Assembly: GCA_977018835.1 (NCBI GenBank)
Contig: OZ361256.1
Coordinates: forward strand, 3,410,001 to 3,474,000
Length of the DNA: 64,000 nucleotides
DNA from: Minutocellus sp. GHC0000111
Taxonomy: Eukaryota
Direction: 5' to 3'
Position numbers and translations under genes: made by a program. The notes under the pieces were generated by a model, which worked only from the letters and a program-made list of their open reading frames with translations, was not told the DNA's origin and searched no databases. Shown one piece after another: positions 35,824-62,800 of the stretch (within the stretch, counting starts at the first letter, position 1; every line of letters starts with the position of its first letter).

Positions 35824-36124
35824 GGCCTGTCATCCAAGTCGTTCGACACATATTAATAACGAAAACGAAGAAGCAACGATCCATCAACGTCATCTCCAAT
35901 GGGTTTTCTGGGCAGAGGCAAAGGCATCGAGAGCTGCTTACAAAGAATTCACAAGACACTTCAAAACAACCATATTTCAGCTACCTGTTACGAGATAGAA
36001 TACAAGGAAATATTCCACACATTATGCATACATTCGGCACACCATCATTTCAATTATTATTTATAAATGTATAAAAATTATAATGTTAGGACTCTAACGA
36101 TTATCATTATCTTATTTTCCCTTG

Positions 36125-37072: not shown

Positions 37073-37629
37073 TTTGTGCAAAGATTGTTTATTTAGTTTG
37101 TGCGTGGATGACTTTCAATTGAATGAACAGGGCAATGAGCTCTGAGCGCTGAGCGAGAGACGGCCAATGATTTTGTTGATTGGGTTCCGATCTTGTGCGG
37201 CATTTTAGCGGTGGCAAAGTGGCAAATCGGTGAAATTTCAATTATCGCGTCTGACCGTCACCATGTCTTTGTGGTGGTCAGTCAAAGGGTTGAAGCGGCA
37301 CAAGAGTTTTGATCCCGGAAGCAGCCGCTGATGACTTGAAGTCGAAGTTTGCTTTTGGAGGTCTTGGTTGTTATTGGCGGGAAAGAAGACCGCGCCAAAT
37401 CATCTCGACCAGTGGTCATCTAAGCCCTCGATCTCACTACAGATCTATTCCCTGTCATACCAGGATAGCAACGTCTATTCATGGCCAAACCAGGTCGTTT
37501 TCTCGCAGACTTGGCTTGTCGCGCCTACAAGTGAATTCTGTTGTCAGCGAAGCTCCGAGTCAAGTCAGTGCGTCAATCTTATTCTTGCGTTCGAGGGACA
37601 CGATCGTATCACCAATTTCCTTTCTCAAC

Positions 37630-38988: not shown

Positions 38989-39178
38989 ATAATACATTTG
39001 GCAAAAAAAACCTACGAACATGACATACTAGTACATATTTAGACACTTTAACTTATCTGTAATTTCTTTTTTTTTTCGTACCAATACTTTAAAATTGTGG
39101 TCCTGATTTATTTTTTAGTCTTCTACTGTATACATTGATTGAACACCAAACATTCATGCATCAGCATAGACACGTTCT

Positions 39179-40851
39179 TTACAGCAGCAATGTTGTAGGG
39201 TTCTCAACGTGAGACTTGAAGGCCGAAAGCCACTGAGCACCGACCGCACCATCAACGACACGGTGATCACAGCTGAGCGTTGCCGTAAGCATTACCGATT
39301 CCTTGTAAATCTCCTCGCTATCGGCGTCGTCATTGGGAACAATTCGGTTCTCAATGGCACCCAATGCCAAAGCGACCGCCTGTGGCTCTCGGATGATGGG
39401 AGCACACGCCTTGACTCCATACATGCCCATATTCATGACCGTCACAGTACCAACAGCGCCGAATTCCTCACCAGAGGGCATGGCAGCCTCTCCCTCCTCA
39501 GCAGGCTCGAGCTGGGCCACGGCCGCCTTGATGTCATCCGAGATGGATTTCACACCTCTCCAGCCGGCATCACGAATTACGGGACTGTACAGCGCATCGC
39601 CACTGCCAACGACAAAATTCACATCGACGGAATCGTAAACTCGCACGGCGGTGTCCATCCAACTGGCGTTGGCCGAGGGGACGGCCTTCATGGCGGCAGC
39701 GGCCGCCTTGACGAGCAGGTCGTTCACAGCAATGCCGGCATCATCCTCACCCAGATTGAGCGTAGCATTGAGCTGCTTGCGAGTTTCCAAGAGCGAATCC
39801 AACGCCACATCGACCGTGAGGTAGTAATGCGGCACATTTTGCTTGGAATGCGAAAGCTGGGCGGCAATCTCCATGGCGGCAGGCGAGAGCGGGTAGTCTG
39901 TGTAGCCGATGCCAGGCACCGGTGGGGCGGCAGGCGTTGCCACGGCGGCAGCTCCGGGCGCCGTTGCCGAGGCAGCAGCGGCATCGACGGCCCCAGCGGC
40001 GCTGGGGACGTATTCTCGCACGTCATCGGCAATGATCCGTCCACCGGGTCCAGTACCAATAATGTTGAGAGCCGAGACGGGTCCGAAGCCCATCTCCTTG
40101 GCCAGAGTATGCGCCAAGGGCGATGCCACGACTCGATCACCAGTGGCACCCGCAGCTGGGGGTGCCACGGCAGCGGGAGGAGGAGTCACTGGAGCAGGAG
40201 GCGCCGCCGCGGCAGGGGCTGGCGGGGGCGTTGAGGCAGCAGGTGCGGCCGGCTCCGCGGGGGCGGCAGGCGCGGCGGAAGCCTCGACGACATAATCCTT
40301 GAAGGCGCCGATATCGTCCCCATCCTCGACGGTAATCATAATGGGCTCACCGCAGGTAATTTCATTCGGACCGGCATCGGCGAGAATTCTGGCGATGAAG
40401 CCATCGTCCTGTGCCTCAAAGTCGACGGTGGCCTTGTCGGTCTCGACCTCGCAGAGAACATCGCCGGCGGCAAATTCTTCTCCCTCAGCCTTGTTCCACT
40501 TGGCGATTGTTCCGGCCTCCATGGTCTGTTTGATTGGTCGTCCATTGCGATTCGGGAGTAAAAGGTGTAAAAGTGAAATGTGAGATGAGCGGATATCTTC
40601 CTGGGAGATGTGCAAAGCTTCAAGCACTTCCTCTCCAACGTCGGCAGTTCCATCGGCACTTTTTTTTGACAGAGGAAACACATGTAACTCCGCATGGAAC
40701 GAAAACTTACCGGCGAGAGAGACGGCATACCGACGACCTCGTGGGGTGGGTAGCTGGACATCCATCTTCCTCGGGCGAAGCCCGCCGATCGGGCGACGGT
40801 GGCGCTGCCGATGCGGCGAGACGCGAGCCGGAACGCAGCGAGGGTGGCCAT
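39179..40851 (-). CDS. DLAT: Pyruvate dehydrogenase E2, dihydrolipoamide acetyltransferase, mitochondrial (exons 40851-40711, 40525-39179)
   Basis: Presequence; 'MPSLSP|TMEAG'; lipoyl motif VETDKAT; E3-binding 'ASPLA..GTGPGGRI'; catalytic DHRVVDGA. Confidence 0.95.
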
Positions 40852-41002
40852 CGTTGCGACGGAAGGCGGAAAAAATGGAGCGAGCGAGATCGAACGCAGG
40901 ATGCCGGAGAAGGACAGACCAATTTATGAAATTTATTTATTTGCTCAACGCAGAAGATACCGATCGGTGCCCCAACCTCCAAGACCCTCCAAGCAAAGCA
41001 AG

Positions 41003-41683
41003 ATGAAGATCACCACTGCCATCCTGGCGATTGCATCGACAGCGCCCTTGGTCGAGGGGTTCGTTGGAAATGCAGGACATAACATCAGGTGGCAGCACGC
41101 AAGATTTTCCACCACCGCCGATGCTGCCCCAACGGCTTCTTCTTCAACCAGTGTTTCCGCCACCCTCCCTTCGCCGGAGGAGTCTGCTCAGGCCCTGCAG
41201 GACTACATGGTCAAAGCCCACGAGGACAAGGCTCGCGCCGTTCGAGAGATTGAAGAGAAGAGCCGGGCTAGGATTAAGGTACGTCGTTGCGAAGATTATT
41301 GAGCCACTTGTGGTGATTTTTCGCCGACACCAAAGTAAGCATATGTGCGCATGACACTAACTTATTCCATGTCTCGACTGAAACTGCAAACACAGGAACT
41401 CGAGGAGGAAGTCGCTACTCTAAAGGCCAAGCTGGAATTACCAACGGTTGGGGGTGAACAGAATGATGAGGACAAATCCTATGCTCTTCCAGCAACGAAC
41501 AAAAGTCAAACGGCAAAGATTGCCGCCTATCAAAGCTTCGTGGCGAAGTACGTGGTAGAATCGAATCAGGCTCGGGTCAAGGCCGTGAAGGATGCCGAGG
41601 ACAAGCTAAGGGCTACATATGAGGCCAAAATTGCGGAGCTGACTGCGCCCAAGAAGGAGGAGGCTGTGAATGGAAGCGATTAG
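41003..41683 (+). CDS. Small coiled-coil protein, probably plastid-targeted (exons 41003-41278, 41396-41683)
   Basis: Signal 'MKITTAILAIASTAPLVEG|FV'; internally duplicated motif 'YMVKAHEDKARAV' / 'YVVESNQARVKAV'; phase-0 GT-AG intron. Confidence 0.75.
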
Positions 41684-42186
41684 AAAGAGAACGAGAGAGA
41701 AGTGTGATTGATAGGGATATTGTTGTTGCGTGCTCAGTCATGTGTTCGTTGGGCACTTTGTCTGCAAAAGCGGAAACCGACACTGTTGTCTCCAACAGAA
41801 GTTTAGCCAGTGGGCCGGTATATGTTTTAACAATTAATTGGGAACCTATTATTATGCATGAAATCGGCGGCGTGGATTTTCCTGCATGGACTGCCTATTG
41901 TTTGTCGTCTTTTGTGATGTGATGTTTGCACGCACCCTCCAATGGACTAAGGAGCTGGTGCAAATCAAACACCAATACCTTAGGTACATGTCAATACTCG
42001 TACCTAGGTACGTGCATGGTCCTCCCTCGACCTCGCCATCGTGCAGGACGGCATCATCATTTCTTATCGCGGCACATGTATTTTGGCATAAATAAATGAA
42101 AACAGCAAAGAAACGAGGAAAAGAAGAATAGGCGGACGGTTCCTGACCGCTCATTCCGTCAGGCCCTCAAGCAGCCAACCACCACC

Positions 42187-43428
42187 ATGACGACAATAAG
42201 TAGAGCGGCCAGCAAAAGGATATTAGCTGCGGCTTCGACACAGACGCGGTCAGTTCCAACAATAAGTGGGAGCACTTCTTACCGACAATTCTTTGGCGGC
42301 GCAGCGGCTACCTCCTCCTCGTCTTCATCGACTATCGATGCTATCTCAGAGTCTGCGACACAAAATGCGGCAGCATTCGATAGCCATTACGGCTACATAC
42401 GCACATCTGCCAATCGCATTCACCGGAAGTCCCGCAACCCCGTCGTGGCTCATGCCGTTTCGAATCAGAGGACAGTGTCTTCCGATATCAACATAACACC
42501 TCCCCCGTATGCCGATACTGGTGTGGTCGTCCCTGGTCTATTCCCCAATCAAGTGCTATTGCACGACGAAACCTCAATTGAACGGATGCGAACAGCAGCC
42601 AGACTGGCGCGAAAGGTTTTGGACAAGGCCTGCACATTGGCTGAAGAGGGAGTCACAACCGATGCAATTGACGGCGCAGTCCACTCGGCAATATTGAGAG
42701 CTGGAGCATATCCCTCGCCATTGAATTATGCGGGATTTCCGAAGAGTGTGTGCAGTAGTATCAACGAAGTGATTTGCCATGGAATACCCGATGCACGGTC
42801 GCTGCAGAACGGGGATATTGTTAGCTTTGATGTTAGTTGTTTCATTGGTGGAGTGCACGGTGATAATTGTGCCACTGTAATTGTTGGAGATGTTGAAAAG
42901 GATGATGGAGCCGGCACTGCTACCGATGAAAATGATGCCCCAAAAGATTGGAGAGGCGTGTCTCAAAAGACTACATTTGCAAATGATGAAGAACAAGAGT
43001 TATTTGTCACAGGCCGCCGACTCGTTCAAGCTGCGCTTGAAAGTCTGAACGAGGGCGTGGCTGTTTGCAAACCAGGCGCCTGTCTATCAGATATTGGCAA
43101 GGCGATCCATGCTGTGGCTGATGCATACCAATACGATACAGTTCGCAAATACCGTGGCCATGGCATCTCTGAAGAATTTCATTGCGCTCCCTTTGTCAAG
43201 CATTATCGTAAATCAGACGCACTTATTTTGGAGCCTGGGATGATATTTACAATTGAGCCAATGCTCACCGAGGGTAACGCTGATTGTTATGAGTGGAACG
43301 ATGCTTGGACGGTGGCAACCGTCGACGGCGGAAGATCAGCGCAATTTGAGCACACGGTTCTGATAACAGAAGATGGGGTCGAGATTCTTACCCTCCCAGA
43401 AATTGACAATAATACTAACAATAAGTAG
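42187..43428 (+). CDS. map: Methionine aminopeptidase type I, organellar (MAP1D-like)
   Basis: YPSPLNYAGFPKSVCSSINEVICHGIPD, DVS..GVHGD, GHGI..FH, FTIEPM, SAQFEHT. Confidence 0.95.
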   Translation: MTTISRAASKRILAAASTQTRSVPTISGSTSYRQFFGGAAATSSSSSSTIDAISESATQNAAAFDSHYGYIRTSANRIHRKSRNPVVAHAVSNQRTVSSDINITPPPYADTGVVVPGLFPNQVLLHDETSIERMRTAARLARKVLDKACTLAEEGVTTDAIDGAVHSAILRAGAYPSPLNYAGFPKSVCSSINEVICHGIPDARSLQNGDIVSFDVSCFIGGVHGDNCATVIVGDVEKDDGAGTATDENDAPKDWRGVSQKTTFANDEEQELFVTGRRLVQAALESLNEGVAVCKPGACLSDIGKAIHAVADAYQYDTVRKYRGHGISEEFHCAPFVKHYRKSDALILEPGMIFTIEPMLTEGNADCYEWNDAWTVATVDGGRSAQFEHTVLITEDGVEILTLPEIDNNTNNK

Positions 43429-43475
43429 ATCTGTCGATTATATTACAAATCAGCGAAGAATGCCGCTACAGTCGA

Positions 43476-44449
43476 TTATTCCCTTACGTACAACTGTATC
43501 TGTCGCTTCCACGCTGTCCTTTTGTGCTCATCACCAGAGCCGCTACTTCTCTCGTTGTCCTCCTCTGCAGCAGTGACCCGCCTAAAACCGCATGTCAAAA
43601 TGATCTTTTCCACTTCCTCTTCAATATTTCCTCGCATAGACAATTCCTGCGAAGTTACCGAGTCCAGTTCCGGCCGATCCATTTTCCGTAACCTTGTGTT
43701 TGCTCTACCATAACACTTTGATATCTGCGGCTCGACAACCAGCATGTCAGTTTTGTCACAAGTACGTATCAAGACCTCCCTCAAACCAACGTCCCCCGCG
43801 TGGACATGTATCCACATGGTTGTGCTGAACAGAGTGGTTAGATCAAAACGTTCTACATCACCCAGAAAGGCCTTGTATTTGGACAATTGCTGTTCCTCAT
43901 CACAAAGATTGCAAATCTCGAATCTTGCATCAATGCCAGAATGACCGTCTTTCTTCTTTGGATCATTCGAGGAGCCATACTTTGTGTTGGCTCTCTCAAT
44001 AAGGGTCGGATCGATGTCCAAACCAAGGCATTCGATGTTAATATTTTTGTGTGTGTTTGATCCTTTGTTGTCGTCATTACCACTACTAAGCTCATGGCAT
44101 CTCTTGAGGACAGCATCGGCGAGGGCTATTGTCAGGTCTCCCTCGTTACATCCCAGGTCACAATATTTCAATAGATCTTTATAGTATTACCTGCTTGGTC
44201 GCACGTTGTTTGGTCGTTTGTTCTCTGCTTCTTCCTTGGACTGATCTCACTGAATTTGCATTTCTCCAACAACCGGCGGGCAATGCAATGAATCAAGCCC
44301 TGCTCTTCTAGCACATCGATACGATTGCTCGGTGGATGGTGAAAGTAGTAGTTATGATAGTTTCCTAATCGATGACCTCTCTCAATAGAGCTGCTTTGCA
44401 TAGCCGCCTCGACGGCGGCGGCTGCACCTTGCGTTTTCTTCTTCGACAT
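43476..44449 (-). CDS. BCDIN3D/Bin3-like RNA methyltransferase with a frameshift near 44180
   Basis: 'GNYHNYYFHHPPSNRI' in one frame; 'YCDLGCNEGDLT', 'GLDIDPTLIERA', 'FSTTMWIHVHAGD' and 'VVEPQ..KCY' in another. Confidence 0.8.
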
Positions 44450-44703
44450 CTTGAAAGAAAATGAGGCGAGATCGAGGCGCGCAGAGACGCTGCGATGTGA
44501 CTCATAACCCTTTACAATGAGGACATTGGTATCTACGTCACAATACAATACAACGCTTTTGCGCAAGAATCGCACAACGATGGCGAGCGCGGATCGATGC
44601 ACCAAATTCGAAAATCTTGGCGTCGAACCGCGTCGAATTCAGCAGTTCTTTTTCACTTCCTCCGTTGCACACGCAATACTACGTAGTAGATACAACAGCA
44701 AGC

Positions 44704-46500
44704 ATGGCAGATTCTCAAACGCACCTGGCCTCGTACAATATCGCAGCGCCAGTCACCTACCATCGCGGCGGTGCATTGGCTCTCACAGGTCTTTCCCTCG
44801 TTCACGATGGCGGAAGAGTCCTGTTCCAGCCGGCTGACATTTCTCTTCGGCACGGAAACATCACTGGATTGGTCGGTACCAACGGATGCGGCAAAACGTC
44901 GCTTGCCAGGATCCTATCGGCCAAGGATCTCCCTGGATTTCCACAAGGTTTGGTCATTGAATACTTGGCCGCATCGGACGACGAAGAATATTTTGCGGGT
45001 CACTTTACGGAAGAAGATTCGCTTTCGCTCAAACCAATCGAGTACATTGATCTACGAATCCAGCAACGATCGGAACAGCTCCTGGAGCAGATAAATGAAC
45101 TGGAGACCAAACTCGAAAGCATTGACGAGGTCGATGAAGACGAAGTAGACCTGGAGCAGATTTCTGATCAGTTGGCCCAACTCTATGATTTGCAGGATGA
45201 TCTATCGGAAAAGATCCAACGAGAGATGCACCACGCGCTGGACGAGCTGGGCCTTCGCAAATACGAAGACAAGCAACTCTCTGAATTGAGCAGTGGGTGG
45301 AGATACAAGTGTCGTCTTATCGCTGCCTTCTTGACGCACCCGGATCTTTTGATCATTGATGAGCCTTCCTTCCTGGACGAGAGCTCAACGCAGTGGCTCG
45401 TGTCTCGGTCGAAAGAGGCATCAAACAAAGACAACGCCATTGTTTTGCTAATATCTCACAAGGAGATATTATTGGATACTCTTTGCGACAGCATATTGTA
45501 TATCAATTCAGGAAATCAGACACTGACGACATATCACTGTGGATATAGTGTCTTCCGCTCGACACATGAAGATCAGGTGGGTGCGGCATCGAAGGTTGTT
45601 GCTGGGACCGAAAAAAAGCAGCAGAACGCCGAAAAATCACTCAAGAAAATACAAGCAGAGCTGAAAGGGCGAGAACGCAATCTCAAGTCTACAACATCCC
45701 AAAATGCTGATCAGCGATTCATAAAGGGCAAGAACAAGGAAGCCAAACAGAAGGCAGATCGGTCGGCCGCCGCCAAAGCCAAGATGATGAAGAAGAAGGT
45801 GGCAGATCTGGAAGAAACAAGGCGACAGGCGCGCACGGAACGTGTCAAGCCCCTACATATCGATGGTGTCCCCGTCGAAGGAAAAGTAGTTTCATTGCAA
45901 GATGTCGCCGCTTCGTACGGAGGCAATGAGGAATTGATCTTTGAGAATGTAGATTGCTGCATGGAGGCCACCGATTGCGTTCTACTAACCGGTTCCAACG
46001 GCGTTGGCAAATCCTCACTAGTGAAAGTTATACTAGGTGAGATGGAACCTGCCCAGGGACAAGTCTCTCAAAAGGGAAGCGTCATCTATTTTCCACAGAC
46101 AGCTTTGAGTAATTTACTACGACAGCATGGAGATGAAAGCGCTCGAAACTTTCTCGGCGATGCGCTGACAGAAACCGAGGCTTGCATCCACCTAGGCAAT
46201 TTTTGCTTGGCACGAGACCTGGCCTTGCGACCTATCAATACTCTATCCGCCGGGCAGAGAGTACGGCTGTGGTTGGCCAAGAATCAGCTTTTACACCCCA
46301 AACCGGCATTGTTGGCGGTGGATGAGATTAGCGAGAATGTCGACAAGGAGACTCGGGATTCTTTGGTTGATTTGATTTCGAGCTTTGAGGCTGCGGTGTT
46401 GGTAATTAGTCATGATCCCGACTTCTGCCATCGGCTCAAACCGACAAAGAAGTGGGAATTGAGGCGATACGGTTTGCGTGAGACGTATTTTGACAATTAG
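44704..46500 (+). CDS. ABC-F family soluble tandem ATPase
   Basis: Two nucleotide-binding domains (GTNGCGKT/LSSGW/IIDEP and GSNGVGKS/LSAGQ/AVDE/ISHD), a coiled linker and no TM segments. Confidence 0.9.
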   Translation: MADSQTHLASYNIAAPVTYHRGGALALTGLSLVHDGGRVLFQPADISLRHGNITGLVGTNGCGKTSLARILSAKDLPGFPQGLVIEYLAASDDEEYFAGHFTEEDSLSLKPIEYIDLRIQQRSEQLLEQINELETKLESIDEVDEDEVDLEQISDQLAQLYDLQDDLSEKIQREMHHALDELGLRKYEDKQLSELSSGWRYKCRLIAAFLTHPDLLIIDEPSFLDESSTQWLVSRSKEASNKDNAIVLLISHKEILLDTLCDSILYINSGNQTLTTYHCGYSVFRSTHEDQVGAASKVVAGTEKKQQNAEKSLKKIQAELKGRERNLKSTTSQNADQRFIKGKNKEAKQKADRSAAAKAKMMKKKVADLEETRRQARTERVKPLHIDGVPVEGKVVSLQDVAASYGGNEELIFENVDCCMEATDCVLLTGSNGVGKSSLVKVILGEMEPAQGQVSQKGSVIYFPQTALSNLLRQHGDESARNFLGDALTETEACIHLGNFCLARDLALRPINTLSAGQRVRLWLAKNQLLHPKPALLAVDEISENVDKETRDSLVDLISSFEAAVLVISHDPDFCHRLKPTKKWELRRYGLRETYFDN

Positions 46501-46565
46501 ATGCGCTAAGTCGCACAACATAGAATGAATTGGACTCCAAAATAAAACAAGATTGAAGTAGATCT

Positions 46566-47529
46566 CTACCTAACTTTTATCTTTGCCCGAAGCTTGCCAA
46601 TCCGATGCCCTTTCTTTGCCGCTTCTGCAACCCTTTTTTCGTATTCCTTCTTTTCCGCAGCCTTTTTATTTGCAGCATCGCGCGCGTCTGTCCACGAAGG
46701 GTAAGTTTTATCGACACTTTTCCAGTTTATCGAACCGTATACGTGCTGAATGTTGCCCACCAGTAGGTCCCTTCTAGTGAAGACAGGCCGACCGCCGCAT
46801 CGCCGAAGTCCTTCAGTGAATGCGGCGGGTCCGGTAGTCTGATGGACAAAATGTTCATACGACTCGTCCATTTGTTGTCCTCTTTCGATGATGACGTCAA
46901 TAATCGAGGCTATGCATGGATGAAAGGAGGTTGCTCCGAAGAACCAGTTGCAGAAATGATCTGGAGTCTCATGGCCAAATTGTATTCGACTTGAGGCATT
47001 GAATGCAAACCATTGGTCAATTGGGCGAACGTAATTCACGTCAAGATCCATGTAAATGCCACCATAGAAATAAATCACAAGCAGTCGACATGTGTCGGCT
47101 CGCATTACATTCGAAGGGAAGGAATCATACAGTTGCAGCAGGTTGGTTTTGTTTGGATGGTACATTGCAGCAAGGTCTCTGCATTCATCGTCAAGAACTA
47201 TCCGCCGAGCGAGAGTTGGTTCCATTCGTTGCCATTTTTCATGATTTTTCATGATAAGCTTTTGCGTAAAGGCCGAGTTCGTTCGACTTCCAAATGATGA
47301 AGGATTGTCGCGGAATTTCATATTGAACTTCTGAGGGAATTGTTATTCGCCTGACAGCATCCACACCAGCAGCGCGAGCTGCAGTGCTGTTCTTTGGCTG
47401 ACCTTCAGGGATCGACGATAAATAGTAATTGTCAACCGAGCCCAACGAGCAGAGGGACATTCGCCACTGTTCAAACGCCAAGAGAAAAGTAGGAAGCAGC
47501 CCTGCCACAAAGGCGAGGAATATTCGCAT
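46566..47529 (-). pseudogene. Glycosyltransferase family 32 (DXD motif), frameshifted by a 10-bp duplication at 47235-47254
   Basis: Signal anchor, 'IPRQSFIIWK', 'RADTCRLLVIYFYGGIYMDLD', 'TGPAAFT'. Removing one TTTTTCATGA copy gives a single 317-aa frame. Confidence 0.85.
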
Positions 47530-47910
47530 GTTGCCGCCAGCCATCTGCGGCTGGCATCGACTGAGCTGCGGCCCGCAGCACAAAATAAAGACGAGCGCCG
47601 AGGTTGAGGTCCTGAGCCAAAGTGTTCCTGGCTAGTTGCATCTACTAGTCTACTAACTTCCCTGATACATGACATGCATCGGAGCCCAAATTGCGTTATT
47701 GCGTTGTTTTCTCGCCATCTTTGCTTTGCTCACAAGGCCGCGGGGAGCTTTTTGTGCCACAGTCATCATGCAGAAAGTGGGAACAGACTGGAATTCGAGA
47801 GTGGGCCGCGATGGTAGTTGAAATCCGCCGGCAGATTTAGTCTGACCGTCGCCACTAGGGCGAAGACCTCAAGAACGAGGTGTAGTTGTCATAGTTGCAT
47901 GAGTTGAAAG

Positions 47911-48744
47911 TGCAACATGCTGGACTATTGCCTGCGATAGACAATAAAGTTACTCAGCAATTGATGCCAAATTTGCTTACCTAAAAACTATCTTGGAATT
48001 TGCATTCATTCGCAAAAATCCAACTCTGAGAAAATCATGAGCTAAAGCACCTCCTCCTCTCTCTCTTCTTCATGCAGGAGAAGCAAGGGGGAACACTTGC
48101 TTCGCCTGCTTGTTTTTCTCCGAATGAAATGCGAGTCAGAAGCGACTCAAAATGATCAAGAAAGATAAAAAATGAAGCGGCATTCAATCAATGCCGTCCG
48201 TCTCTTGCTGCTGCTTTCGTTCCGCGGTGTTCCACACGTCTCAGCCAAGATTCGGGGCTCCCGCGGAACTTCAATGAAGAAGCACCCTGCGGAGAGAGGG
48301 ACCAGACTGTGCTTTGTGGCCTGTTCAATTTTATCTCTGGGCAGATGGCCGGCACAAAGCTGTCGTCGATCAGCGCGTCAAGCGCTGCGCTAACAATTCG
48401 TCCCCTTTTGTGTGAGGCCACTTACAGCCTCAATCTCCACTTTCTGTCCTTCCTTCCTGCATCGTGTCGCGCGCACAGAGTCATCGCGCTTAGAAACATC
48501 GGGGTGTCCCGGAACGTGATGGTCCCGTCCCGGTCCATCAAGTCATCTCCTTGTGACTGGATCGACTAACAGCACCTGCGTGTGAGAGATCGAGTGAGAA
48601 GAAGGAGAGAGAGAAATGCTAGCTCGAGCCAAGCAAGCAGGCGGGCTGGGCTGCTGGCTCGGTGTGAGCTTAATGAGCTGGATCTCTTGATCCAGAGCAG
48701 AGCTGTGCAGACCTAACTCAGTCCACCATTGCCGATCCATTGCA
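47911..48744 (-). repeat. 3' LTR (834 bp)
   Basis: Aligns end to end with 51082-51876; TGCA...TGCA ends. Confidence 0.95.
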
Positions 48745-49460
48745 CTCGCCTCCTCGATCCATGTCAGAGGAGTGGTGTTCAAGTGTCGGTCAAGTTGTGC
48801 TTGCCTTTTGTTGTGCGCGGCCGCTTCGCGCTTTTTTGCCTGCTGCTGGCCTTCTTCGGTCGGTGTGGACTGGAGGCTCTCAGCTTTTGTGTTTGGCTCA
48901 CTCACCTTTTGTTCGCGAGGGGTACATCATGTGTAGCTTTGCGCGTGGCCATGGGAGTTGTGCCGGCGCTGCTCACCATGTGGTGTCGGTGATCAGTCGA
49001 CTAGGCTCGTCAGTCATCGGCTGCTCCTCGCGCGCTTGAGTCTTGTTTGCTTCTTCCCTCTCGCAGCGGCCTCGCCGAATTCGGACGGCGGACAGACGTG
49101 AAAAAATCTTTCTTGGGTTATGAGCCCATCTTGGTTCGCACATCCTGCGTTTTCCGGGTTTCGTTTGTGCGCCCAGATCGAGACACTTCTATTTGTTTGC
49201 GTTTTTGACCTTTCTTTTCTATGCTTAGGCCTTTACATGCTTCTTTTCATGTTGTTTGGTTCACGTCTTTGTTTCTTTCATGGCGGTATCTTCTTCGCCA
49301 TGCTGTCCTGTGCTTTAATCTAGCTCACGGCGGCATCTTCTTCGCTTCGTGGCTGCTGTTTGCTCATCGCGACGGAGTGCTTTTTTCTTCGCTCGCGGTG
49401 CTAGTTCTCTGTTGTTTGCCTCTGCGGCAGCTCGTGGCGGCATATTTCTTCGCTCACGGC

Positions 49461-49935
49461 TCATGCTTGTTGTTGTGTCTCATTGTAAGGACGTATACGT
49501 CTGATGTTGAGCGTTTCGTATCTCGCTCCGCCGCGTGCCTGTCGGCGGATAGTGACCGTTCCGTTGTCCTTCACCCTTGCAATGAGGTGCGGTCCTTCTA
49601 CCGCCTTCTCTAGCGTGGCTGTTAAGCCTCCGCCGGTGTGGCTGGCTTTAATCTTCCACACCTTGTCGCCTACTTCGTATCGATGAGGCACTCTGCGGCT
49701 ATTTTCTCTTTGGTTGTTGGTGGTCGCGATTCTTTGTTTGCGTTTTTGGACGCAATTCCTCCAATCTGCGACGTGTTTTGTGTTCAAAGCCATGTCTCTT
49801 CCGAACACTAATTGTCCCGGGGTTGCTTGGTTGGTGGTGTGCCAAGTTGATCTTATCGCATATCCGATCGCCGATATGACACCGGCGAATGGGTCATAGG
49901 GCGGAGGAAGCAAACACATGTCTTCTAGGCTCATC
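49461..49935 (-). pseudogene. Gypsy integrase C-terminal remnant (GPY/F region)
   Basis: 'AIGYAIRSTWHTTNQATPGQLVFGRDM..ADW..RENSRRVPHRYEVGDKV..EGPH..NGTVTI..NIRRIRPY'. Confidence 0.85.
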
Positions 49936-49949
49936 GTGCGAAGCATGTT

Positions 49950-50340
49950 GCCTGCCTGTGTTATCACCAGAGCCAAACCTGCGGTTGAAATTAGGATTGA
50001 AACGACGATTAGGATGGAAACCATTGTGAGAATTCTGATGAGGAGAATTTCTTCTAGAAAATCGATTGTTGGGAAAAGAAGGACGTGAGATAAAATTTGG
50101 TTGGCGACGGAATGGTCGTCGTCGCCCTTGACGGTGATTGTTTCTTCGATTGGGATTCGGCGGTTGTCGGCGGCGATTTCCGGCGGTGTTGGAAATCCTG
50201 GTCGGCCTTCTAATCAGGTTGTCGGCGGTTTCAAATCTCTCGAACATATTTATCGTTTCGAGGAGATTGTGATCATCCGGGTCGAAGCCATGATCGAACA
50301 TGCGCCGAACATGGTGGTAAAGAATTCAGCGGCACCACCA
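49950..50340 (-). pseudogene. Gag-like remnant
   Basis: 'MFDHGFDPDDHNLLETINMFERFE' followed by an Arg/Asn-rich nucleocapsid-like stretch, abutting the integrase remnant. Confidence 0.55.
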
Positions 50341-51081
50341 ATGAGGCTTACTGAAGGTCTCTTTTCGAACTCTCTAGGTGAAGAAGGCCTTGGGTGATGA
50401 GCTGGGTTAAATCACCGGTTCCCCGCCATCCGGGCTTCTCGAGGGAGAAACGTGCCAGCTTCTCCCGTGAAACGGGCGAGCTCCTGGATCGAAATTTTCA
50501 TCTCTGCCGGGATGTCGTTACAATACAGGCTCTCAAACAACGGATGGCTCGGTAGCACCCTCATGCAACCGTCCTCACCGTCGCGGGTGTTACGGTCGAG
50601 GTTCTTCACGTGTCTCTCGTGATACTCGGCGGTGTGCTCCTGGACCCGCTCGGCCAGAGCGGCCCGGAAGCGCACATCCATCTGCGACACCGGCAGTTCA
50701 GAGAGTCTGCAAACCTCTTCTCTCCGCCGATACATGTCTTCCAGACTCCCGTGGAGGGACAGAAGTAGCGCGGGATTATGTTGCTCGCTCTTCTGATCCT
50801 TGGCCCTCAACTGACCAAGAATAACATCCACGACAGCCTTGGTGGCGGCATTGTCAAGAAGCTCACCGCATACGCATGCTGCTTGCCTCGCCTTCTCGAC
50901 GGCTTTCTCGGACATGCCGGCCACCTCCATTGCCCTCTGGGCCTTGTTTTCATTAATCTCGATGGGATTCATCACCGGACGAAATATTTTCGACTCAATT
51001 TCCATGTCGACAGTGGAAAAGATACGGTCGAAAGATAAATGCAAAACGATATCAATGAACAATTGATTTATATCGATATAG

Positions 51082-51876
51082 TGCAATATGCTGGACTATT
51101 GCCTGCGATAGACAATAAAGTTACTCAGCAATTGATGCCAAATTTGCTTACCTAAAAATTATCTTGGAATTTGCCTTCGCAAAAATCCAATTCTGAAAAT
51201 TACAAGCTAAAGCACCTCCTCTCTCTCTTCATGCAGGAGAAGCAAGGGAACACTTGCTTCGCCTGCTTGTTTTTCTCCGAATGAAATGCGAGTCAGAAGC
51301 GACTCAAAATGATCAAGAAAGATAAAAAATGAAGCGGCATTCAATGCCGTCTTTTGCTGCTGCTTTCGTTCCGCGGTGTTCCACACGTCTCAGCCAAGAT
51401 TCGGGGCTCCCGCGGAACTTCAATGAAGCACCCTGCGGAGAGAGGGACCAGACTGTGCTTTGTGGCCTGTTCAATTTTATCTCTGGGCAGATGGCCGGCA
51501 CAAAGCTGTCGATCAGCGCGTCAAGCGCTGCGCTAATTCGTCCCCTTTTGTGCGAGGCCACTTACAGCCTCAATCTCCACTTTCTGTCCTTCTTCCTTCC
51601 TGCATCGTGTCGCGCGCACAGAGTCATCGCGCTTAGAAACATCGGGGTGTCCCGGAACATGATGGTCCCGTCCCGGTCCATCAAGTCATCTCCTTGTGAC
51701 TGGATCGACTAACAGCACCTGCGTGTGAGAGATCGAGTGAGAAGAAGGAGAGAGAGAGAAATGCTAGCTCGAGCCAAGCAGGCGGGCTGCTGGCTCGGTG
51801 TGAGTTTAATGAGCTGGATCTCTTGATCCAGTAGAACTGTAGACCTAACTCAGTCTACCATTACCGATCTATTGCA
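51082..51876 (-). repeat. 5' LTR (795 bp) with a perfect 7-bp terminal inverted repeat TGCAATA/TATTGCA
   Basis: Read directly from the sequence. Confidence 0.95.
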
Positions 51877-52202
51877 GAAAGAGAAGATGCGATCTTTTTT
51901 TTGTTTGTGTCGACATCGAGAGAGGTGTGTGTTTGTGTGCGCGGCATGTTCTCTCACTCACATGCTTTCGCTGGATTGATTGCTATAGAAGTGCACGCAA
52001 GCTGATTAGTCCCGGCGGAATTGAACAAGTCCATCCGACCCAATCGTTCTGTTTGAGCACATGAATGCGTGTCTTTCTCTTTGTTTTCCGTGCATTGTTC
52101 ATTGGCACTTAGCAAGCACACAAGCAACCCAGCCGCCGCCACCGTGCATTGGACTCCTGCACCGCACACAGCCAGCCCACACAACACATTCATTCAAGCA
52201 CC

Positions 52203-54475
52203 ATGTCCTTCCCAACCTCGTCGTCCGCCGACGAGGAAGAGGGACTTGCCAACCCTTCCGTGCCGGCGGCACCCATTCTTACTCGAAGGGAGTCGGCCAT
52301 GAAGAGTCTTCGTCGAGCGTCGGCGAGGGCATCCATGCTCTTCGCACGGAATGGCCCCGAGCATGACTGGTTCATTCGGAAGCGTACCAAGCGGGGACGG
52401 TCCCAGGATCCCGACGCCCTCGAGGGGTATCAGCAGCTGCTGACCGATCGGAGGGTCTTTTCCATGTCGATACACGCCATACGCCTTGCGGTGTTCGCGG
52501 ATACGCTCAACAGCATGATCACATGGCCCAACTATGCCCTAATGGCACTGCCGGGCTCACACCCAGATTCCTTTCCCAGTACCGCACCATTTGACTTTTC
52601 TGCGGCGACGTACTTCATTCCACTGACTGGATTGTTGGGTATGGCAATAGCAGGTGTCTTTGCGGGGAAAATATCTGACAAGATTGGCAGAAAGCCCGTT
52701 GTGCTCTTTTGCTTAGCAGGTTCAATGTTTGGCGGCGCTCTCAAATGGTTCCTCCGCCATGGCTTTTGGCCTTTTTGTATCGCGAATCTTGTGAATGGAC
52801 TGCTTTCTGGTACTTTGCCCGTTGCGCTGGCATATTCATCCGACTTGTTCTCGTCCGAACGAGAAAAATCCAAGAACTTTACCGCCATTGTTGGGCTGTA
52901 CGTTGTGGGACAGAGCACTGGAGGCATATTTGCAATCTTGATGCAAAATCATGGGCTGTTTGCACCACTTTGGGCAGGTGTGGCAATTCTCGCTGTTGCG
53001 CTTCTATTCAACATACGTTATCTGATTGAGCCTGGCCGAATCAAGATCCCCGGGACAATTGGCGATGAAGAAAATTACAACGACGATTTGATAGCAGAGC
53101 GACCGGATAAGATCGACAGGAAGATAATGGCAAATATACTTATTGGTGCTTTCACAGACATTGCTGGATCCAAGGCTCTCTTCCCTTTGTGTATGACGCC
53201 ATTGGGCTTTCAGACCTACTACAATGATTTCGTCCAGGTCGACGAGGCGCCAATCATGTCATTGAGTTTGTACAAATGGCTAACGGTCTTGATCGGCTTG
53301 ATTGTAGTCCCATCATCCATCTTTGCCCCCAAGGTCTTCGCTAGATTTGGTTTGGCGGCTGGTAATGTCTTTGGTAATTTTTCAACCGGAGTCATCACTG
53401 TTGCGTTGCTTTTCATTAGCAACGTCGAACCGCCAACAAGAGGGACGTTTGCTGCGTTCGTTTGTACGTTGTACATTGGTTTCCCTTTCACTGTCCTTTC
53501 GCAGCTTGCGACATCCCCCATGTTAGATCGACTTTCTCCGGAAGATAAACGAGGGGTGGTCATGGGGAGCTTCACGACCGTCTTGAATTGTGCCAATGCG
53601 GTCGTACCTTGGCTCTTGGGCTTGGCAACTGATGCTCTTGGGACAACGAATGGTATATGGATTGGGGTCGGTCTTAGTGGGGCGGCGACCTTAATCAACC
53701 TTCCTCTCATATTCAGAAAGGAGTTCAAGCCAACGCCAAGGAAGAAGGAAAAGGTAGGATTCGATGACTTGGCATTGACGCCTGAGGAAGAAGAGAAATA
53801 TATCCAAAAGGCTTTGATGGGCGAATATATTCCTGCTCGTGTGATTCAAGTTATCAATATGAAACGCCTCGAAAGAGGAGAGAAGTACATTATTAATCAT
53901 GTCGGCACTTATGAAAAAGACAAAGATAGACTGAATGAGATTGTCCGAGACGGAAAGAAGGATATAAAAGTCATGGATCACAATGTTCGAAACATATTGA
54001 AAAGGGTCAACGACGGATCATTCGACAAGAAGCTCATTTACGCATTGAATAATCCATTCCCTGAAGAAATGCAAAACCTCCACCATGATATTGGCGAATG
54101 GTTTGGAGACTACATGAAAGACAATGGGTACATTGGCGCAAACCCCGTTCGAAATCTGAAGCTCATGATTATTCGATCGGTGCGTCATTATGCCGTGTGG
54201 TGATATATAAATACTCAACAGTGTCATTTTCATAAACATCCTTCCGGCCTTCTGCCTCACCTTTCCCCCACTTATTTTCTCTTTTTCCCATAACACCACA
54301 GTTTCCACCAATCAACACCTCCGGTGAAATCAACCCCGGAAACATTGAAGAATCACTGTTGAATCTTGATCGGGTGTACAATCGGTACCTTTATGAGGAA
54401 AGCCTTCACGAAGAGCGATCAGGGCTGCGCAATTTGTTCAGGCGACCGCCACGGCGTATGGCCCCAGTTGGATAA
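52203..54475 (+). CDS. Major facilitator superfamily transporter (exons 52203-54179, 54302-54475)
   Basis: About 12 hydrophobic segments; motif A 'GKISDKIGRKP'; 'PVALAYSSD'; 'SPEDKRGVVMG'; phase-0 intron. Confidence 0.9.
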
Positions 54476-58189: not shown

Positions 58190-58529
58190 GGCTGAGCTTG
58201 GTTGAGTTGGGTTTCTTTCCTTGGTATCCTTCCTCGGTCCTGAAAATAAGGAATACTTTCTCGCTTCAACGTGTCACGTAACGTGTCACGTAACGCCCAG
58301 CCCAAGCCCAGCGCTCCGTTGTAGGCCTATGTGGTATCTCTCAGCGCGCCACCCAGCGCCGAGTTCCAACTCGCCCGCTAGCTCAGGTTAGCACAGGAGG
58401 ATTATAAAACCTTGGGGAATAATTGCAGTGCGCCAATCAACGAGACAAGCAGCGCCGGGAAGCAAAGAGGATGCCCGGCATGGTTGACCGTTGAGGTTGT
58501 GTTCTTTTGATCAGCAGCTCGGAGGCGCC

Positions 58530-58710
58530 GCGCGTACCTAGGCCTAGGTACCTAGGCCTAGGTACATGTACACGTACCTAGGTAGGCCTACGTATGACGA
58601 GTGGTGCTCCCGCGTCGGGGTGGTTTTGGTGAGGAAATGTGCGCGGCACCAGGGGGGACCATCTGGTGCTTGTCGTGCGTACCTAGGTACATGTACCTAG
58701 GTACATGTAT
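58530..58710. repeat. Cluster of palindromic TACCTAGGTA / GTAC / CCTAGG motifs with 14-bp tandem duplications
   Basis: 'tacctaggcctagg' x2 at ~58536 and 'gtacctaggtacat' x2 at ~58679. Confidence 0.8.
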
Positions 58711-59819
58711 TCTGCGAGTTGTTATCGCTCTTGGGTTGGGTTCTTGCGTTTATCATGTTGTTGGTGCAGATGTCCCGGGCGGCCTCTAATGTGATGATCG
58801 CAGTGATTTATCTTTGTTGTTAGTTAGTTGCTATTAGCTTTGGTGTGTTTGTGTGCCATCCTTTATGCGTAGGTCGAGCATCTCCAGTCAGGGCTCATCC
58901 TCTTCAACGGGGGCGAGCATCGTGTTGATGTCCACTATACTTGGTCCTGGTAGTGACGGCGCTGCTGAGAATGACGCTTGGTCTGGCGTGGTTATGTCCC
59001 TTCTCGGTCATTCTTGTACAGTCCGATTTTTTCGTTGGGTGGAGAGCACTTATGTTCCTCAGTATTTATCATCAGCGTATTCCGGTCTCAGGAGCAGTCA
59101 ATTGGAAGCCGATGGCACGATGAGGAGTATGATGTCCATGTCTTCTTTGTCGGCTGCTTGTAGGGATTTATTCTACATTCGCCAGCTTCTTTGTGAAATA
59201 TTTGTTCTTTTCTTTCGCGTTTCCGAGCGTGGCAGGGTCGTCGAGCGGTATGCTGATGACATCCAGTGGGGCATGGTGTCAGCTCTTGTGTCCTCGTCGA
59301 GATATCATCGGTACTTGTTTGATCCACCGCCTCATGGAGTACGTTGGTAGTCTTCACTTTCGTAGTGATCCATTCGGATCTCGAGTTTTACTGCGAGGAA
59401 GCACATTCTTGCATTTTATCTGTCGCCAGAATCATGAGTATCTTCCTCGTGTAATATCAGAATATCACCGTTTTAATGTTCAATTTGGTGGTGATATTCA
59501 CGCTCGGCAGAGGCATCACAAGTATGGTTCTCCTGCTCATCATTTTCGTAGATTCCATGATATTCACACTCATGGGAATCACAGCGACATGTTTGCATCT
59601 GGATCATCGACCTTCGAACTGTTGCGGGAATTATTCAGGGGCGGTGAGGCTTTTAATAGGTCTATATATGACGGGGATGATTATGGTCAGGTTTAGCATG
59701 CTGCATAAGTGAGTGTGGTCTTCATCTCTCCGTTTTATGTGCACGTGCTATGTTCATCTTAGGGTGGTATTTTATTGGGCACGTGCTCATATATATATAA
59801 TTATTTCTCTAATATGTAA

Positions 59820-62800
59820 TCATATACCTGAAGGACTATCTTCATCACCATTGGATTTTGCCTCTTCATTGTTCAGATCATTTCCAAGATTTCGATTTTG
59901 TACAGGGGAAGCATGCTCTCCATTTTGATCTTGGACAGCAATATCACTAGTCCCAGCTGAAGTTGGTGTTTGGGACGAGTCCTGCGTTTCATACATTCCT
60001 AGCTCCGAGAAGGAGTGGGGAGTCACCATTTTGACTCTGGGCGACTTGATCCTTTTTGCTGTGGCGTTGAGGTCCTTTGCCAACGCTCTTCTCCATTTGT
60101 TTAGGTGGGTGAGGATTGTCACCACGTCGTTGGGATTTTCTTGGACTAACTTTTTCAGGTCGCTCTTACTAAGTTTCCTGAACGGATCATGTCTCAGTTC
60201 CTCGGCAGCAGCGGTCATCACCCCGACGGTCACGTCTTTGATCGTATCCTTTTCTTCCATTTTCCTACGGTTGCTGTGGGGATTTGCATCACCATCACGG
60301 AGTGCTTTGGCGTACCTTATAACTTGTTGCATTTTGGGACTATGGCTAGTATCACGGGCCGGTGGCGACTCTTGAGCGGCATCACCTGCGACTACTTCCT
60401 CATTTTGTCGCGGTGATGACTTCATTCTTTTTGCTCGTCTTGACTGGTCTTGGCCCCCGACTTGTTCCTCGGAATTATCTTGATTCTCATTCGCGTCGTC
60501 AGCATTTTGCCTTGCACTGTTATCTGCATTGGTTGGTTTTGTTGTTAATTTTGACGTTGGTGTAGGCGATCGTCGTCGTTTGGCTGCTGTCGATTGGAAA
60601 ATAGAAATATTAAATTTGAGTAAGGGATACCAGGAAAGAGCAATTATCGAAGAATACCACGGGGTATTCAAAAGGAAGAGGCGAGCTTCAATTATTCATA
60701 TCGTACCTTTTGACCCTGGATCTTTGGCTTTCCATAATCGTTGAGCAAGATTGGGATCATTCTTGTCCTCCTCAGCGGGCTCGTCAATTAGCAGTCTCAC
60801 CATGGCTGCGAATCGGAATTCTTTCCTGAGGTACAATATCTCGTCACTTGTTGACTTGAATCCAACAATGCAAGTTTTATCGTCGAGGTCGGTGTCCGTT
60901 GGAATCTGATCTCGTCTCATCGTTGACGACGAGAAGAGGAACCAATCGTCTTCGTTCTTGAGATCCTTGATTCTCTTCTTCATTGCGTCGCTCTGCAGAT
61001 ATCCTGCGTCTAGTGCTTCCCTCAGCACGGAGACGTATGTAGCCATTGCTAATGATAGCACCTCCGTTGGGGGAGAATTCGATCTGGACGTCCACTCTGT
61101 CCTGTTCTTGTAGGCTGTGGCAAGGATCGTATCTGTCATGTGATCTCTTTTCTCGGCCGATGCTTCGTTGTGACGATCATTCTGATAAGCTCGATATCCC
61201 TGCACTAGCATCGATTTCTCTGCCGACCAGTTTGAGACCTCAACCGTCGTGAATCCTTTGGTCGCCAGGGCAACTTCGGTGAATTCCTTGGTTATTTCTG
61301 ACAGAGCATTGTAGAAGATGTGATTCCTGATGGCCTCCAATATATATGTCGGCAGATTATCGAGGGTGCTGTCGATCACTCCCTTGAGCTTCTTTGTTCC
61401 TCTTGCGCCTTTGCTCTGTTTCCCGGCGATAGTTGATGCCACGTTCCGCAGAAACGCCCATATAAGGTCAAGCTTGTTGTACGAAGCCATCTTTGGATCC
61501 TGAGAAAGTGCCATTTGGAAGGTGATGAGGGCGGAGGGGTTGAGGGCCATCATCGATGCAAGATCAAGTGTTCCTCTGATTTCTTTGGTCAGCGTGAAGG
61601 TGCTCTTTTGCTTCGGGGCCTCGAATTTGTGAACTCCATACGATATTCTGTGACCAATTGCGTTATGGAATTTGGCGTCGTCATCACAGTCGGGATCCTT
61701 TTGATATCCTCGAGCCAGAAGCTTGATCTGCGCTACCACCATTTCGAGTTTCTTTTCTGGCGTTACTTCATCGCCATTTGTCTTTACCTTCGAGATTTCT
61801 TCTCTTCCCCAGAGCGAGGTCGCAGTTAGATTCTTTGCGAGGGCGAAAGCCGCTGCCCCCTAACGGACATGAGTGTTCCTTCGAGAGTACCACCACTCTC
61901 CATGAGACATGATTCTACGGAGTGATGCTTAATTTCCTTGGCCTGGCTGGCAGCATTGAGATCTTTGAGCATGTTGCTGAGTTGCGAGAAATTGGTTTGT
62001 CCCGATGATTGCTGAGCAGCACGAGCATTAAGGTCACTGACTGCTCTGAGGTGGTCTACATCTCGTGTGAAATGAAGAACCGTGACATTGACCTTGTCGA
62101 GGATCTGTGAATCAGCGTGCAACACGTTGGATCCTTGATTATGGTAGCATTCCATTTGCTTCCGCAGCGTCGGGTTGGTCACGTCAAAGGAGCGATTGCT
62201 ATCATCACCATATGGCAAACCGAATGTTTTCATCCACGATGCGAGACCACGGTGCTGGCCATCAATGTTGCAACCAATTAAATTGTAACTCATTGACGTT
62301 GGAAAGGTTGATCCGAGACGACGGCGAGACAAGTAAATCACCATGTCATACCGCGCCCGCAAGACATAGTGAGTTCTTTTCATCCCTGTATATCGGTCCA
62401 AGTCTCGAAGAAGAGGTTCCCTATGCGCAAAGAGAGGAAATATTCGTGAGTGTTCAAATTCTGTTTGAATACCTCTTGGTATTTAACCAGAAAATAAAAA
62501 TCAGCACTTACCCTTCGATCTCACTATTCTTGTCCTTCTCTATGAATGATTCGATGCTCGCAATGTCTTTTGCCAAGCCTTCGGCAATTTTTGAGCACTC
62601 GTCATGATAATCCTGGTTCCAATTCTCCTCTATTCTTCCCTTTTCAATAGTTTCCTGGATGTATTTATCGGCTTCTTCATAGCTTCCTGCTGACAGCATG
62701 ACATAATACAGTACCTTGGGTCCTGAACACTCGACCACGTGCCGCTTTACTGTTGACTCGCCACTCGCGACGCCGTATTCTGCATCGAACACAAGATCCT

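What the first reader, a model, noticed from the sequence alone, without database searches (positions are those of the whole stretch)
47911..51876. LTR pair records a directional A:T->G:C (TpA-biased) hypermutation plus micro-duplication process: candidate repeat-defence system
Established: LTRs are identical at insertion, and the intact TSD shows these two come from one event. Seen (manual alignment): ~17 substitutions, 16 of them transitions. In 14 the left LTR has C/G where the right has T/A, and 7 of those destroy a TpA (e.g. 'gtctaccattaccgatctattgca' -> 'gtccaccattgccgatccattgca'; 'cagtagaactgtagacc' -> 'cagagcagagctgtgcagacc'). At 'tcatgagc' vs 'ttacaagc' each copy resolves an inferred ancestral TTATAAGC differently. 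All 16 indels are 2-5 bp tandem duplications or run expansions (14 left, +44 bp; 2 right, +5 bp), matching the 39-bp length difference. TpA is rare (about 12 in 48241-49140), many survivors are YTAR, and the integrase GPY motif reads GPH (CAC). Established: 5mC decay and fungal RIP give C->T, the opposite direction. Inference: TpA->TpG on either strand, as adenine deamination or modification would give, plus staggered-nick fill-in repair, points to a repeat-targeted mutator.
Basis: partly seen in the sequence, partly recalled or inferred. Interest (0 to 1): 0.88.

Follow-up and report, generated by a model that had tools for sequence, protein, structure and literature searches.

The report
Diatom retrotransposon mutated A-to-G, plus duplications
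The two end-repeats of a dead jumping gene in a diatom differ mostly by A-to-G changes next to T or A and by 2-5-letter duplications, likely the scar of a host process that mutates repeated DNA, resembling one so far published only for an unrelated alga.

Summary
The LTRs (834 and 795 bp, TSD GAAAG) of an internally deleted Ty3/gypsy element in a diatom differ by 18 substitutions and 16 tandem gains of 2-5 bp.

Direction is as claimed. A high-depth family contig matches the right LTR and lacks all 11 testable gains. Intact relatives show 9 of 10 element-derived amino-acid changes are A:T>G:C, 8 at TpA, none C>T. In the LTRs 15 of 15 A:T>G:C changes follow T or A (10 TpA, 5 ApA). Single-copy DNA shows the ordinary bias: 10 GC>AT versus 5 AT>GC, none at TpA. 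An independent sample carries the left-LTR form, so assembly error is unlikely.

It is not wholly new: TpA hypermutation of foreign DNA is described in Bigelowiella natans (preprint), and this scan noted it before in two other diatom genomes. New here are the relaxed context and an equal load of micro-duplications. That the duplications are repeat-specific is not shown. The enzyme is unidentified; adenine deamination is likeliest, polymerase eta the main rival.

The parts
47906..47910 (.). target-site duplication GAAAG, left copy
   Evidence: an empty-site-like allele is seen as a loose end at 47907 in runs X1 and X4
47911..48744 (-). 3' LTR (left), heavily mutated: 14 A:T>G:C (9 TpA, 5 ApA), 1 CpG C>T, 14 tandem gains (+44 bp)
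   Evidence: polarity
48745..48760 (-). purine-rich tract just before the 3' LTR (PPT-like); suggests the element's orientation
   Evidence: sequence; reading it as a PPT is from established knowledge
48761..49460 (-). 3' non-coding region, TpA o/e 0.34, 2.4-fold excess of 4-5 bp tandem units; 18-19 gap letters against family contigs in 48751-48954
   Evidence: X5 records 18, 19
49464..49913 (-). C-terminal remnant of a Ty3/gypsy integrase; derived I>T, Y>C, I>V, Y>H (GPH), T>A, V>A, one transversion Q>K and a 3-bp duplication at 49757
49953..49961 (-). approximate junction of the internal deletion that removed most of pol
   Evidence: family contigs go on with other sequence at 49953; relatives have 1000-1200 aa RT-RNaseH-IN proteins
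49961..51005 (-). gag-like remnant (no Pfam hit; named by position): derived Y>C, Y>H, Y>H, a 6-bp near-tandem gain, a 1-bp run gain near 50465 and a replaced segment at about 50313-50373
51069..51080 (-). 12-bp palindrome where a primer-binding site is expected; TpA-rich and unmutated
   Evidence: no self-priming match of 8 nt or more in the LTR
51082..51876 (-). 5' LTR (right), near the family majority: 1 T>C at TpA, 1 CpG G>A, 1 transversion, 2 gains (+5 bp); perfect 7-bp terminal inverted repeat
51877..51881 (.). target-site duplication GAAAG, right copy
   Evidence: the junction is covered without differences by a haplotype-depth contig (X1 record 7)
47795..47910 (.). left piece of a small repeat into which the element inserted
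   Evidence: joint 47794 to 52112 in three runs
51877..52111 (.). right piece of the host repeat; also carries a TpA T>C (51998) and 2-4 bp gains (51979, 51984) against 3-5 contigs

Best explanation
After this gypsy element inserted, its adenines next to T or A were changed to G on both strands, likely by a host adenine deaminase aimed at repeated DNA, and the same DNA gained many 2-5 bp duplications, likely from fill-in repair of staggered breaks or nicks. Shown: direction, context (per site TpA 10 of 48, ApA 5 of 120, CpA and GpA 0 of 235; mostly a pyrimidine after the A), both strands, gains over losses, contrast with single-copy substitutions, and a patchy load (29 events left, 5 right). 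Inferred: A>I deamination by an ADAT/TadA-family enzyme, fixed as G at replication; targeting by a silenced or foreign-DNA state; episodic, local action; duplications made by end-joining or primer realignment with 1-2 nt microhomology in the same chromatin state rather than at the same lesion; and a defensive role (tyrosine codons eroded, frames broken).
For: Family polarity: X1 record 5 (depth 479 versus 60-72 for one haplotype) is the right LTR minus 10 letters with 3 substitutions over 51107-51684. My assignment predicts exactly 3 there, and none of the 10 left gains in that span is present. Both LTRs share five gains absent from high-depth contigs (51219, 51403, part of 51587, 51740, 51798), so they descend from one template. 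Protein outgroups: 9 of 10 element-derived changes are A:T>G:C, 8 at TpA, 0 C>T; gains of 3, 6 and 1 bp. Other copies carry their own A>G changes (N>S, K>E in the family contig; Y>C in P0182). Control: of 17 isolated single-copy SNPs polarised with run X18, 10 are GC>AT, 5 AT>GC (0 TpA, 1 W-A) and 2 transversions; versus LTRs p=0.003. Ts:Tv is 17:1 versus about 1.8:1, p=0.008. TpA o/e is 0.34-0.47 in element non-coding DNA versus 0.72 in single-copy non-coding DNA. RTAY:YTAR is 4:16 versus 140:85, p=0.0005. 15 of 16 changes at A are transitions, as deamination predicts. The same direction and main motif were measured directly in B. natans (10.64898/2026.01.13.699255). Duplications of 2-4 bp from NHEJ fill-in are documented in yeast (10.1101/2020.05.03.075358).
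Against: One locus, no genome, no enzyme seen. A third of hits are ApA, whereas B. natans hits are TpA only; W-A is the context I recall for polymerase eta, and 15 of 16 transitions does not exclude a polymerase with 75% transitions (p=0.06). The control is small (17 sites picked from the 40 rows shown of 804, after dropping clustered rows), mostly coding, and polarised with one outgroup run. Duplications may be genome-wide: single-copy non-coding DNA has a 1.7-fold excess of 4-5 bp tandem units, and the indel contrast vanishes in the worst case (0.79 versus 0.89, p=0.85). Co-location of duplications and substitutions is weak (p=0.017 and 0.094 under two nulls). A related LTR family appears to share the left state at two sites (47916, 48024). 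X1 and X4 contigs do not cover 47996-48343, so the best DNA holders do not confirm the left LTR's private letters. One element-derived A>G in integrase is at CpA.
Confidence: 0.45

Rival explanations
1. Low-fidelity synthesis by a polymerase-eta-like enzyme in silenced or late-replicating repeat DNA misinserts G opposite T (A>G at W-A) and slips back 2-5 nt, so one enzyme makes both marks as a by-product, not as a dedicated defence.
For: Context order TpA > ApA >> CpA, GpA. 10 of 13 de novo duplications have 1-2 nt flanking microhomology, p=0.016. Weak co-location of the two marks. Pol eta inserts dGTP opposite T and is used more in late-replicating heterochromatin (PMC13716900, passages). The W-A motif itself is recalled.
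Against: Near absence of A>T and A>C (1 of 16; p=0.0003 if half were transversions). No 1-bp indels between the LTRs. The closest published case is TpA-exclusive and read as deamination.
Confidence: 0.25
2. The substitution signature is repeat-targeted, but the duplications are simply this species' ordinary insertion class. Both scale together only because the left part of the element has had more effective exposure (right LTR partly reset, or a recombinant between a hit and an unhit allele).
For: Excess of 4-5 bp tandem units in single-copy non-coding DNA (64 versus 37). Tandem gains among control indels (41800, 33753). Worst-case ratio equal to the LTRs'. Duplications not near TpA.
Against: Indel:substitution is 0.89 here versus 0.03 in Phaeodactylum (PMC6604790, abstract) and 0.23 in B. 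natans. The contrast is significant if non-coding substitutions are three times denser than coding (p=0.008). Shared derived gains argue against wholesale replacement of either LTR by the majority type.
Confidence: 0.2
3. Both marks are this diatom's neutral genome-wide mutation spectrum, visible only in unconstrained DNA.
For: The control is mostly coding and under selection; only 17 polarised sites.
Against: Control transitions run the other way and avoid TpA. Single-copy non-coding DNA keeps TpA (0.72) and RTAY.
Confidence: 0.06
4. The left LTR is ancestral; the right suffered RIP-like CpA/CpT>T changes and slippage deletions. Or the differences are assembly errors.
For: Read backwards, the sites are CpA and CpT, the recalled RIP contexts. 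A related family appears to share C at two sites, and X1 and X4 lack contigs over part of the left LTR.
Against: The family majority equals the right LTR. Protein outgroups give the same direction. RNA run X6 from another study has contigs with the left form (47917-48256: 1 substitution, 8 gap letters; 48279-48642: 3 substitutions, 0 gaps).
Confidence: 0.04

Closest known systems
TpA hypermutation of integrated viral DNA in Bigelowiella natans (Mettrop et al., bioRxiv 10.64898/2026.01.13.699255; abstract, results and discussion read, parts 1-3 of 5; supplements closed)
   Same: A:T>G:C on both strands, TpA as main target, opposite to the AT bias elsewhere in the genome, foreign or repeated DNA, patchy action, deaminase proposed but unproven.
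   Different: Rhizarian versus diatom; single-copy viral inserts versus an LTR element and its host repeat; TpA only versus 5 of 15 at ApA. No micro-duplications, LTRs or diatoms in its main text; where its 21 indels fall is in supplements I could not see.
Fungal repeat-induced point mutation (RIP)
   Same: Transition-only, dinucleotide-biased erosion of repeats on both strands.
   Different: RIP is C>T and creates TpA (abstract starts); this removes TpA. No duplications are recalled for RIP.
Polymerase eta mutagenesis (somatic hypermutation at A:T; late-replicating A>G)
   Same: A>G; W-A context (recalled); heterochromatin link (PMC13716900, passages).
   Different: Normally carries many transversions at A (recalled); here 1 of 16.
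Top2/NHEJ de novo duplications (Stantial et al., 10.1101/2020.05.03.075358, passages; PMC8795545, listing only)
   Same: 2-4 bp duplications of unique sequence, including 3-bp ones explained by terminal annealing.
   Different: No A>G component; caused by trapped Top2 in yeast and tumours; mode 4 bp there, 2-4 bp about even here.
Ty3/gypsy LTR retrotransposons of diatoms
   Same: RT-RNaseH-integrase order in intact relatives, GPY motif region, TG..CA ends, 5-bp TSD, PPT-like tract.
   Different: This copy is internally deleted and has a palindrome in place of a recognisable primer-binding site.

Membership tests
B. natans-type TpA hypermutation | A:T>G:C transitions dominate | tested here: met
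   15 of 18 LTR substitutions; 9 of 10 protein-polarised changes
B. natans-type TpA hypermutation | exclusively at TpA | tested here: not met
   10 of 15 at TpA, 5 at ApA; one CpA in integrase
B. natans-type TpA hypermutation | both strands hit | tested here: met
   12:3 in LTRs (p=0.035); TpA-only across the element 11:5 (p=0.21)
B. natans-type TpA hypermutation | confined to foreign or repeated DNA; rest of genome AT-biased | tested here: met
   small control, 10 GC>AT versus 5 AT>GC, 0 at TpA; TpA o/e contrast
B. natans-type TpA hypermutation | about 1000-fold raised rate, active in a subset of lines | not testable with these tools
   needs mutation-accumulation lines; only a 29:5 left-right asymmetry is seen
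Fungal RIP | C>T transitions that create TpA | tested here: not met
   polarity is the reverse
Polymerase eta signature | A>G in W-A context | tested here: met
   15 of 15; the motif is recalled
Polymerase eta signature | sizeable share of transversions at A:T | tested here: inconclusive
   1 of 16; excludes 50% but not 25%; the shares are recalled
Inosine/EndoV staggered nicks at TpA | duplicated units centred on or next to TpA | tested here: not met
   mean distance 18.1 versus 19.2 bp at random, p=0.43
Top2/NHEJ de novo duplications | 2-4 bp duplications of unique sequence | tested here: met
   15 of 16 are 2-4 bp; most have no prior repeat
Top2/NHEJ de novo duplications | dependence on Top2, Ku and ligase IV | not testable with these tools
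   needs genetics
Ty3/gypsy | RT-RNaseH-integrase order | tested here: met
   in relatives P0003 and P0004, 79-81% identical to the remnant; this copy lacks the region
Ty3/gypsy | LTRs with TG..CA ends and a 4-6 bp TSD | tested here: met
Ty3/gypsy | tRNA primer-binding site | tested here: inconclusive
   12-bp palindrome at that place; no tRNA set available to compare

The most novel reading that the evidence does not exclude
Diatoms have a repeat-directed mutator, a mirror image of fungal RIP, in which one pathway both converts W-A-Y adenines to G and cuts or re-primes the DNA to leave 2-5 bp duplications, so that transposon copies are inactivated by frameshifts as well as missense changes.
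Probability: 0.3. Interest if true: 0.88.

Novelty: new variant of a known kind. Interest (0 to 1): 0.64.

Why it matters
If general, diatoms share with an unrelated alga a GC-driving mutator of repeated or foreign DNA. That would point to a widespread, unidentified DNA adenine-editing activity in eukaryotes and would make it testable in genetically tractable diatoms. LTR-divergence dating would be inflated: here one LTR carries six times the load of its twin. The coupled micro-duplications, if repeat-specific, would be a second, frameshifting arm that my searches did not find described.

Tried and rejected
- No whole genome is held, so family-wide alignment, genome-wide TpA maps and a search for deaminase or EndoV genes were not possible.
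- A 19-nt LTR pattern in JGI metagenomes gave one hit; the contig has no similarity to the window by blastn, so it is a chance match.
- The protein atlas did not answer. Host kinship rests on one gene: best named hit Thalassiosira exigua, 71%; all other hits naming a species are diatoms.
- The terminal inverted repeat first looked like independent polarity, but a related family has another perfect variant of it, so I give it no weight.
- EndoV nicks at TpA were rejected as the source of the duplications.
- RNA editing of the transcript was rejected: both strands are hit and the LTRs differ.
- Clustering of substitutions was not significant (7 in 75 bp, p=0.08). That test used an event list that still counted 51659 as A>G.
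- Absence of X1/X4 contigs over 47996-48343 is not taken as evidence either way.
- The H/Y difference at 50313 lies at a rearrangement junction and was dropped.
- Literature searches found no diatom report and no report coupling A>G with micro-duplications; only an open-access library was searched.
Full report
Setting. The window is gene-dense, 52% GC DNA. The gene next to the element has its best named match in Thalassiosira exigua (71%), and all hits naming a species are diatoms, so the host is taken to be a diatom on one gene's evidence. No genome was held. The element at 47911-51876 has two LTRs and a GAAAG target duplication. It reads on the minus strand: a PPT-like tract lies next to the left LTR, and it holds a gag-like remnant and the end of an integrase whose intact relatives have RT-RNaseH-integrase order. 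Family contigs continue with other sequence at 49953, marking an internal deletion. Loose ends at 47907 and a joint from 47794 to 52112 indicate alleles without the insertion, and the flanks are themselves a small multi-copy repeat.

Observation. The aligner gave 15 mismatches and 17 gap pieces. By hand these resolve into 16 indels, every one a tandem duplication or run expansion of 2-5 bp (14 left, +44; 2 right, +5), and 18 substitutions, 17 of them transitions.

Polarity was the key question, because read backwards the sites are CpA and CpT, a RIP-like pattern. Three lines settle it. First, a contig at depth 479 in run X1 (one haplotype 60-72) covers 51107-51684 of the right LTR with 3 substitutions and 10 missing letters, all explained by rows 51219, 51403 and 51587. 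None of the 10 left gains in that span is in it, nor the right 3-bp gain: 11 of 11 testable indels are gains, and 5 of 16 lie outside the span. My assignment predicts exactly three right-derived substitutions there. The output does not name them, so this is a consistency check. X5 record 24 (0 substitutions to 51652) and X4 record 14 (1 to 51684) fit 48413 and 51659 being CpG decay. Second, proteins. Against P0187 (106 of 112 identical), P0188 and nine further homologues, the integrase remnant has I>T, Y>C, I>V, Y>H, T>A, V>A, Q>K and one extra codon. Against an intact 398-aa relative and a fragment, the gag-like remnant has Y>C, Y>H, Y>H, a 6-bp gain and a 1-bp gain. That is 9 of 10 A:T>G:C, 8 at TpA, 0 C>T. 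Third, the states TCATGAG, TTACAAG and a related family's TTGTGAG need five W-A>G changes from TTATAAG, but a double hit in one CpG from a CpG ancestor (inference). Against: that related family appears to share the left state at 47916 and 48024, which I read as recurrent hits.

Same origin and reality. Five gains are shared by both LTRs and absent from high-depth contigs, so the pair descends from one template that was already gaining duplications. RNA run X6 from a different study has contigs close to the left form (1 substitution and 8 gap letters over 47917-48256; 3 substitutions and no gaps over 48279-48642). X1 and X4 have no contig over 47996-48343, which contig building can cause; raw reads were not available.

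Context. All 15 A:T>G:C changes have T or A before the A (p=2e-6). Per site: TpA 10 of 48, ApA 5 of 120, CpA and GpA 0 of 235. Ten of 15 have a pyrimidine after the A (p=0.02), and surviving TpAs in element non-coding DNA are RTAY:YTAR 4:16 versus 140:85 in single-copy non-coding DNA. TpA o/e is 0.34 in the left LTR, 0.47 in the right and 0.72 in single-copy non-coding DNA. Both strands are hit, with a weak lean to the sense strand (12:3). The load is 29 events left and 5 right (p=4e-5).

Control. Four runs were laid on 30500-47300. Ts:Tv is about 1.8 in X4, X5 and X18, against 17:1 in the LTRs. Of 804 substitution rows 40 were shown; I dropped 23 (21 in clusters, 2 without outgroup cover) and polarised 17 with X18: 10 GC>AT, 5 AT>GC (none at TpA), 2 transversions. 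So the substitution signature is not seen in single-copy DNA, on a small and mostly coding sample. Indel rows were 86 against 804, but only 2279 of 16801 bases are non-coding. If all indels lie there the ratio is 0.33-0.79 against 0.89 (p from 0.008 to 0.85). Single-copy non-coding DNA also has 1.7 times the expected 4-5 bp tandem units. Repeat-specificity of the duplications therefore stays open. For scale, measured indel:substitution rates are 0.03 in Phaeodactylum (PMC6604790, abstract and passages) and 0.23 in B. natans.

Mechanism. Near-pure transitions, the TpA preference and the B. natans precedent favour adenine deamination (0.45). The ApA share, microhomology at 10 of 13 duplications and weak co-location keep a polymerase-eta-like origin alive (0.25; PMC13716900 passages). 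Duplications are not centred on TpA, so nicks at paired inosines are unlikely. Their sizes fit fill-in of staggered breaks as shown for Top2 and NHEJ in yeast (10.1101/2020.05.03.075358, passages). Enzyme, targeting and any defensive benefit are inferred.

Prior knowledge. Two earlier scan notes on other diatom genomes reported TpA erasure in LTR pairs and named the B. natans work; a search for notes on micro-duplications found none. I read parts 1-3 of 5 of that preprint and searched its text: 230 of 231 mutations in two viral regions are A>G or T>C, all at TpA; ADAT2 is proposed; diatoms, LTRs and polymerases are not mentioned; its supplements were closed. Searches found no diatom description. 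The Pleurosigma genome paper (PMC12803021, passages) reports GC-poor LTR elements and no such process, so it may not be universal in diatoms.

Verdict. A real, polarised, element-enriched A>G process that works like the B. natans one but fails its TpA-only feature, with an equal load of micro-duplications whose specificity is unproven. New variant of a known kind; interest 0.64.

Noticed in passing
window 58274-58837: Cluster of TpA-rich palindromic units (GTACCTAGGTAC-like) upstream of the diacylglycerol kinase gene; TpA o/e 1.3, the highest non-coding value in the window.
   Followed up: no
window 5786-7123: 1.3 kb non-coding stretch with 15 tandem units of 4-5 bp and TpA o/e 0.53; may be another decayed repeat.
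   Followed up: no
window 43339-43472: Short multi-copy stretch between two genes: depth rises about fourfold, loose ends in three runs, replaced in X18; not a tRNA by ARAGORN.
   Followed up: partly
window 50313-50373: About 60 bp of the gag-like frame are replaced by other sequence that seems to include an inverted piece of the lost part; no template found within 47000-53000.
   Followed up: partly
window 51069-51080: Perfect 12-bp TpA-rich palindrome at the expected primer-binding site, untouched by the mutator.
   Followed up: partly
window 47795-47910 and 51877-52111: A roughly 350-bp unnamed repeat hosts the element and carries the same marks, so the process is not LTR-specific.
   Followed up: partly
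window 41800: Exact 11-bp tandem duplication present in X4 and X5 but not in the window, in single-copy non-coding DNA.
   Followed up: no
window 58838-63469: Several ORFs of 130-390 aa without Pfam match.
   Followed up: no
window 1170-2900: Array of 111-114 bp LNR (Notch) domain repeats in a coding frame.
   Followed up: no
window 47996-48865: In RNA run X6 contig depth over the left LTR (27-84) exceeds that over the middle of the right LTR (5-12); could mean the mutated form is expressed or forms a subfamily, but contig depth is a poor measure.
   Followed up: no
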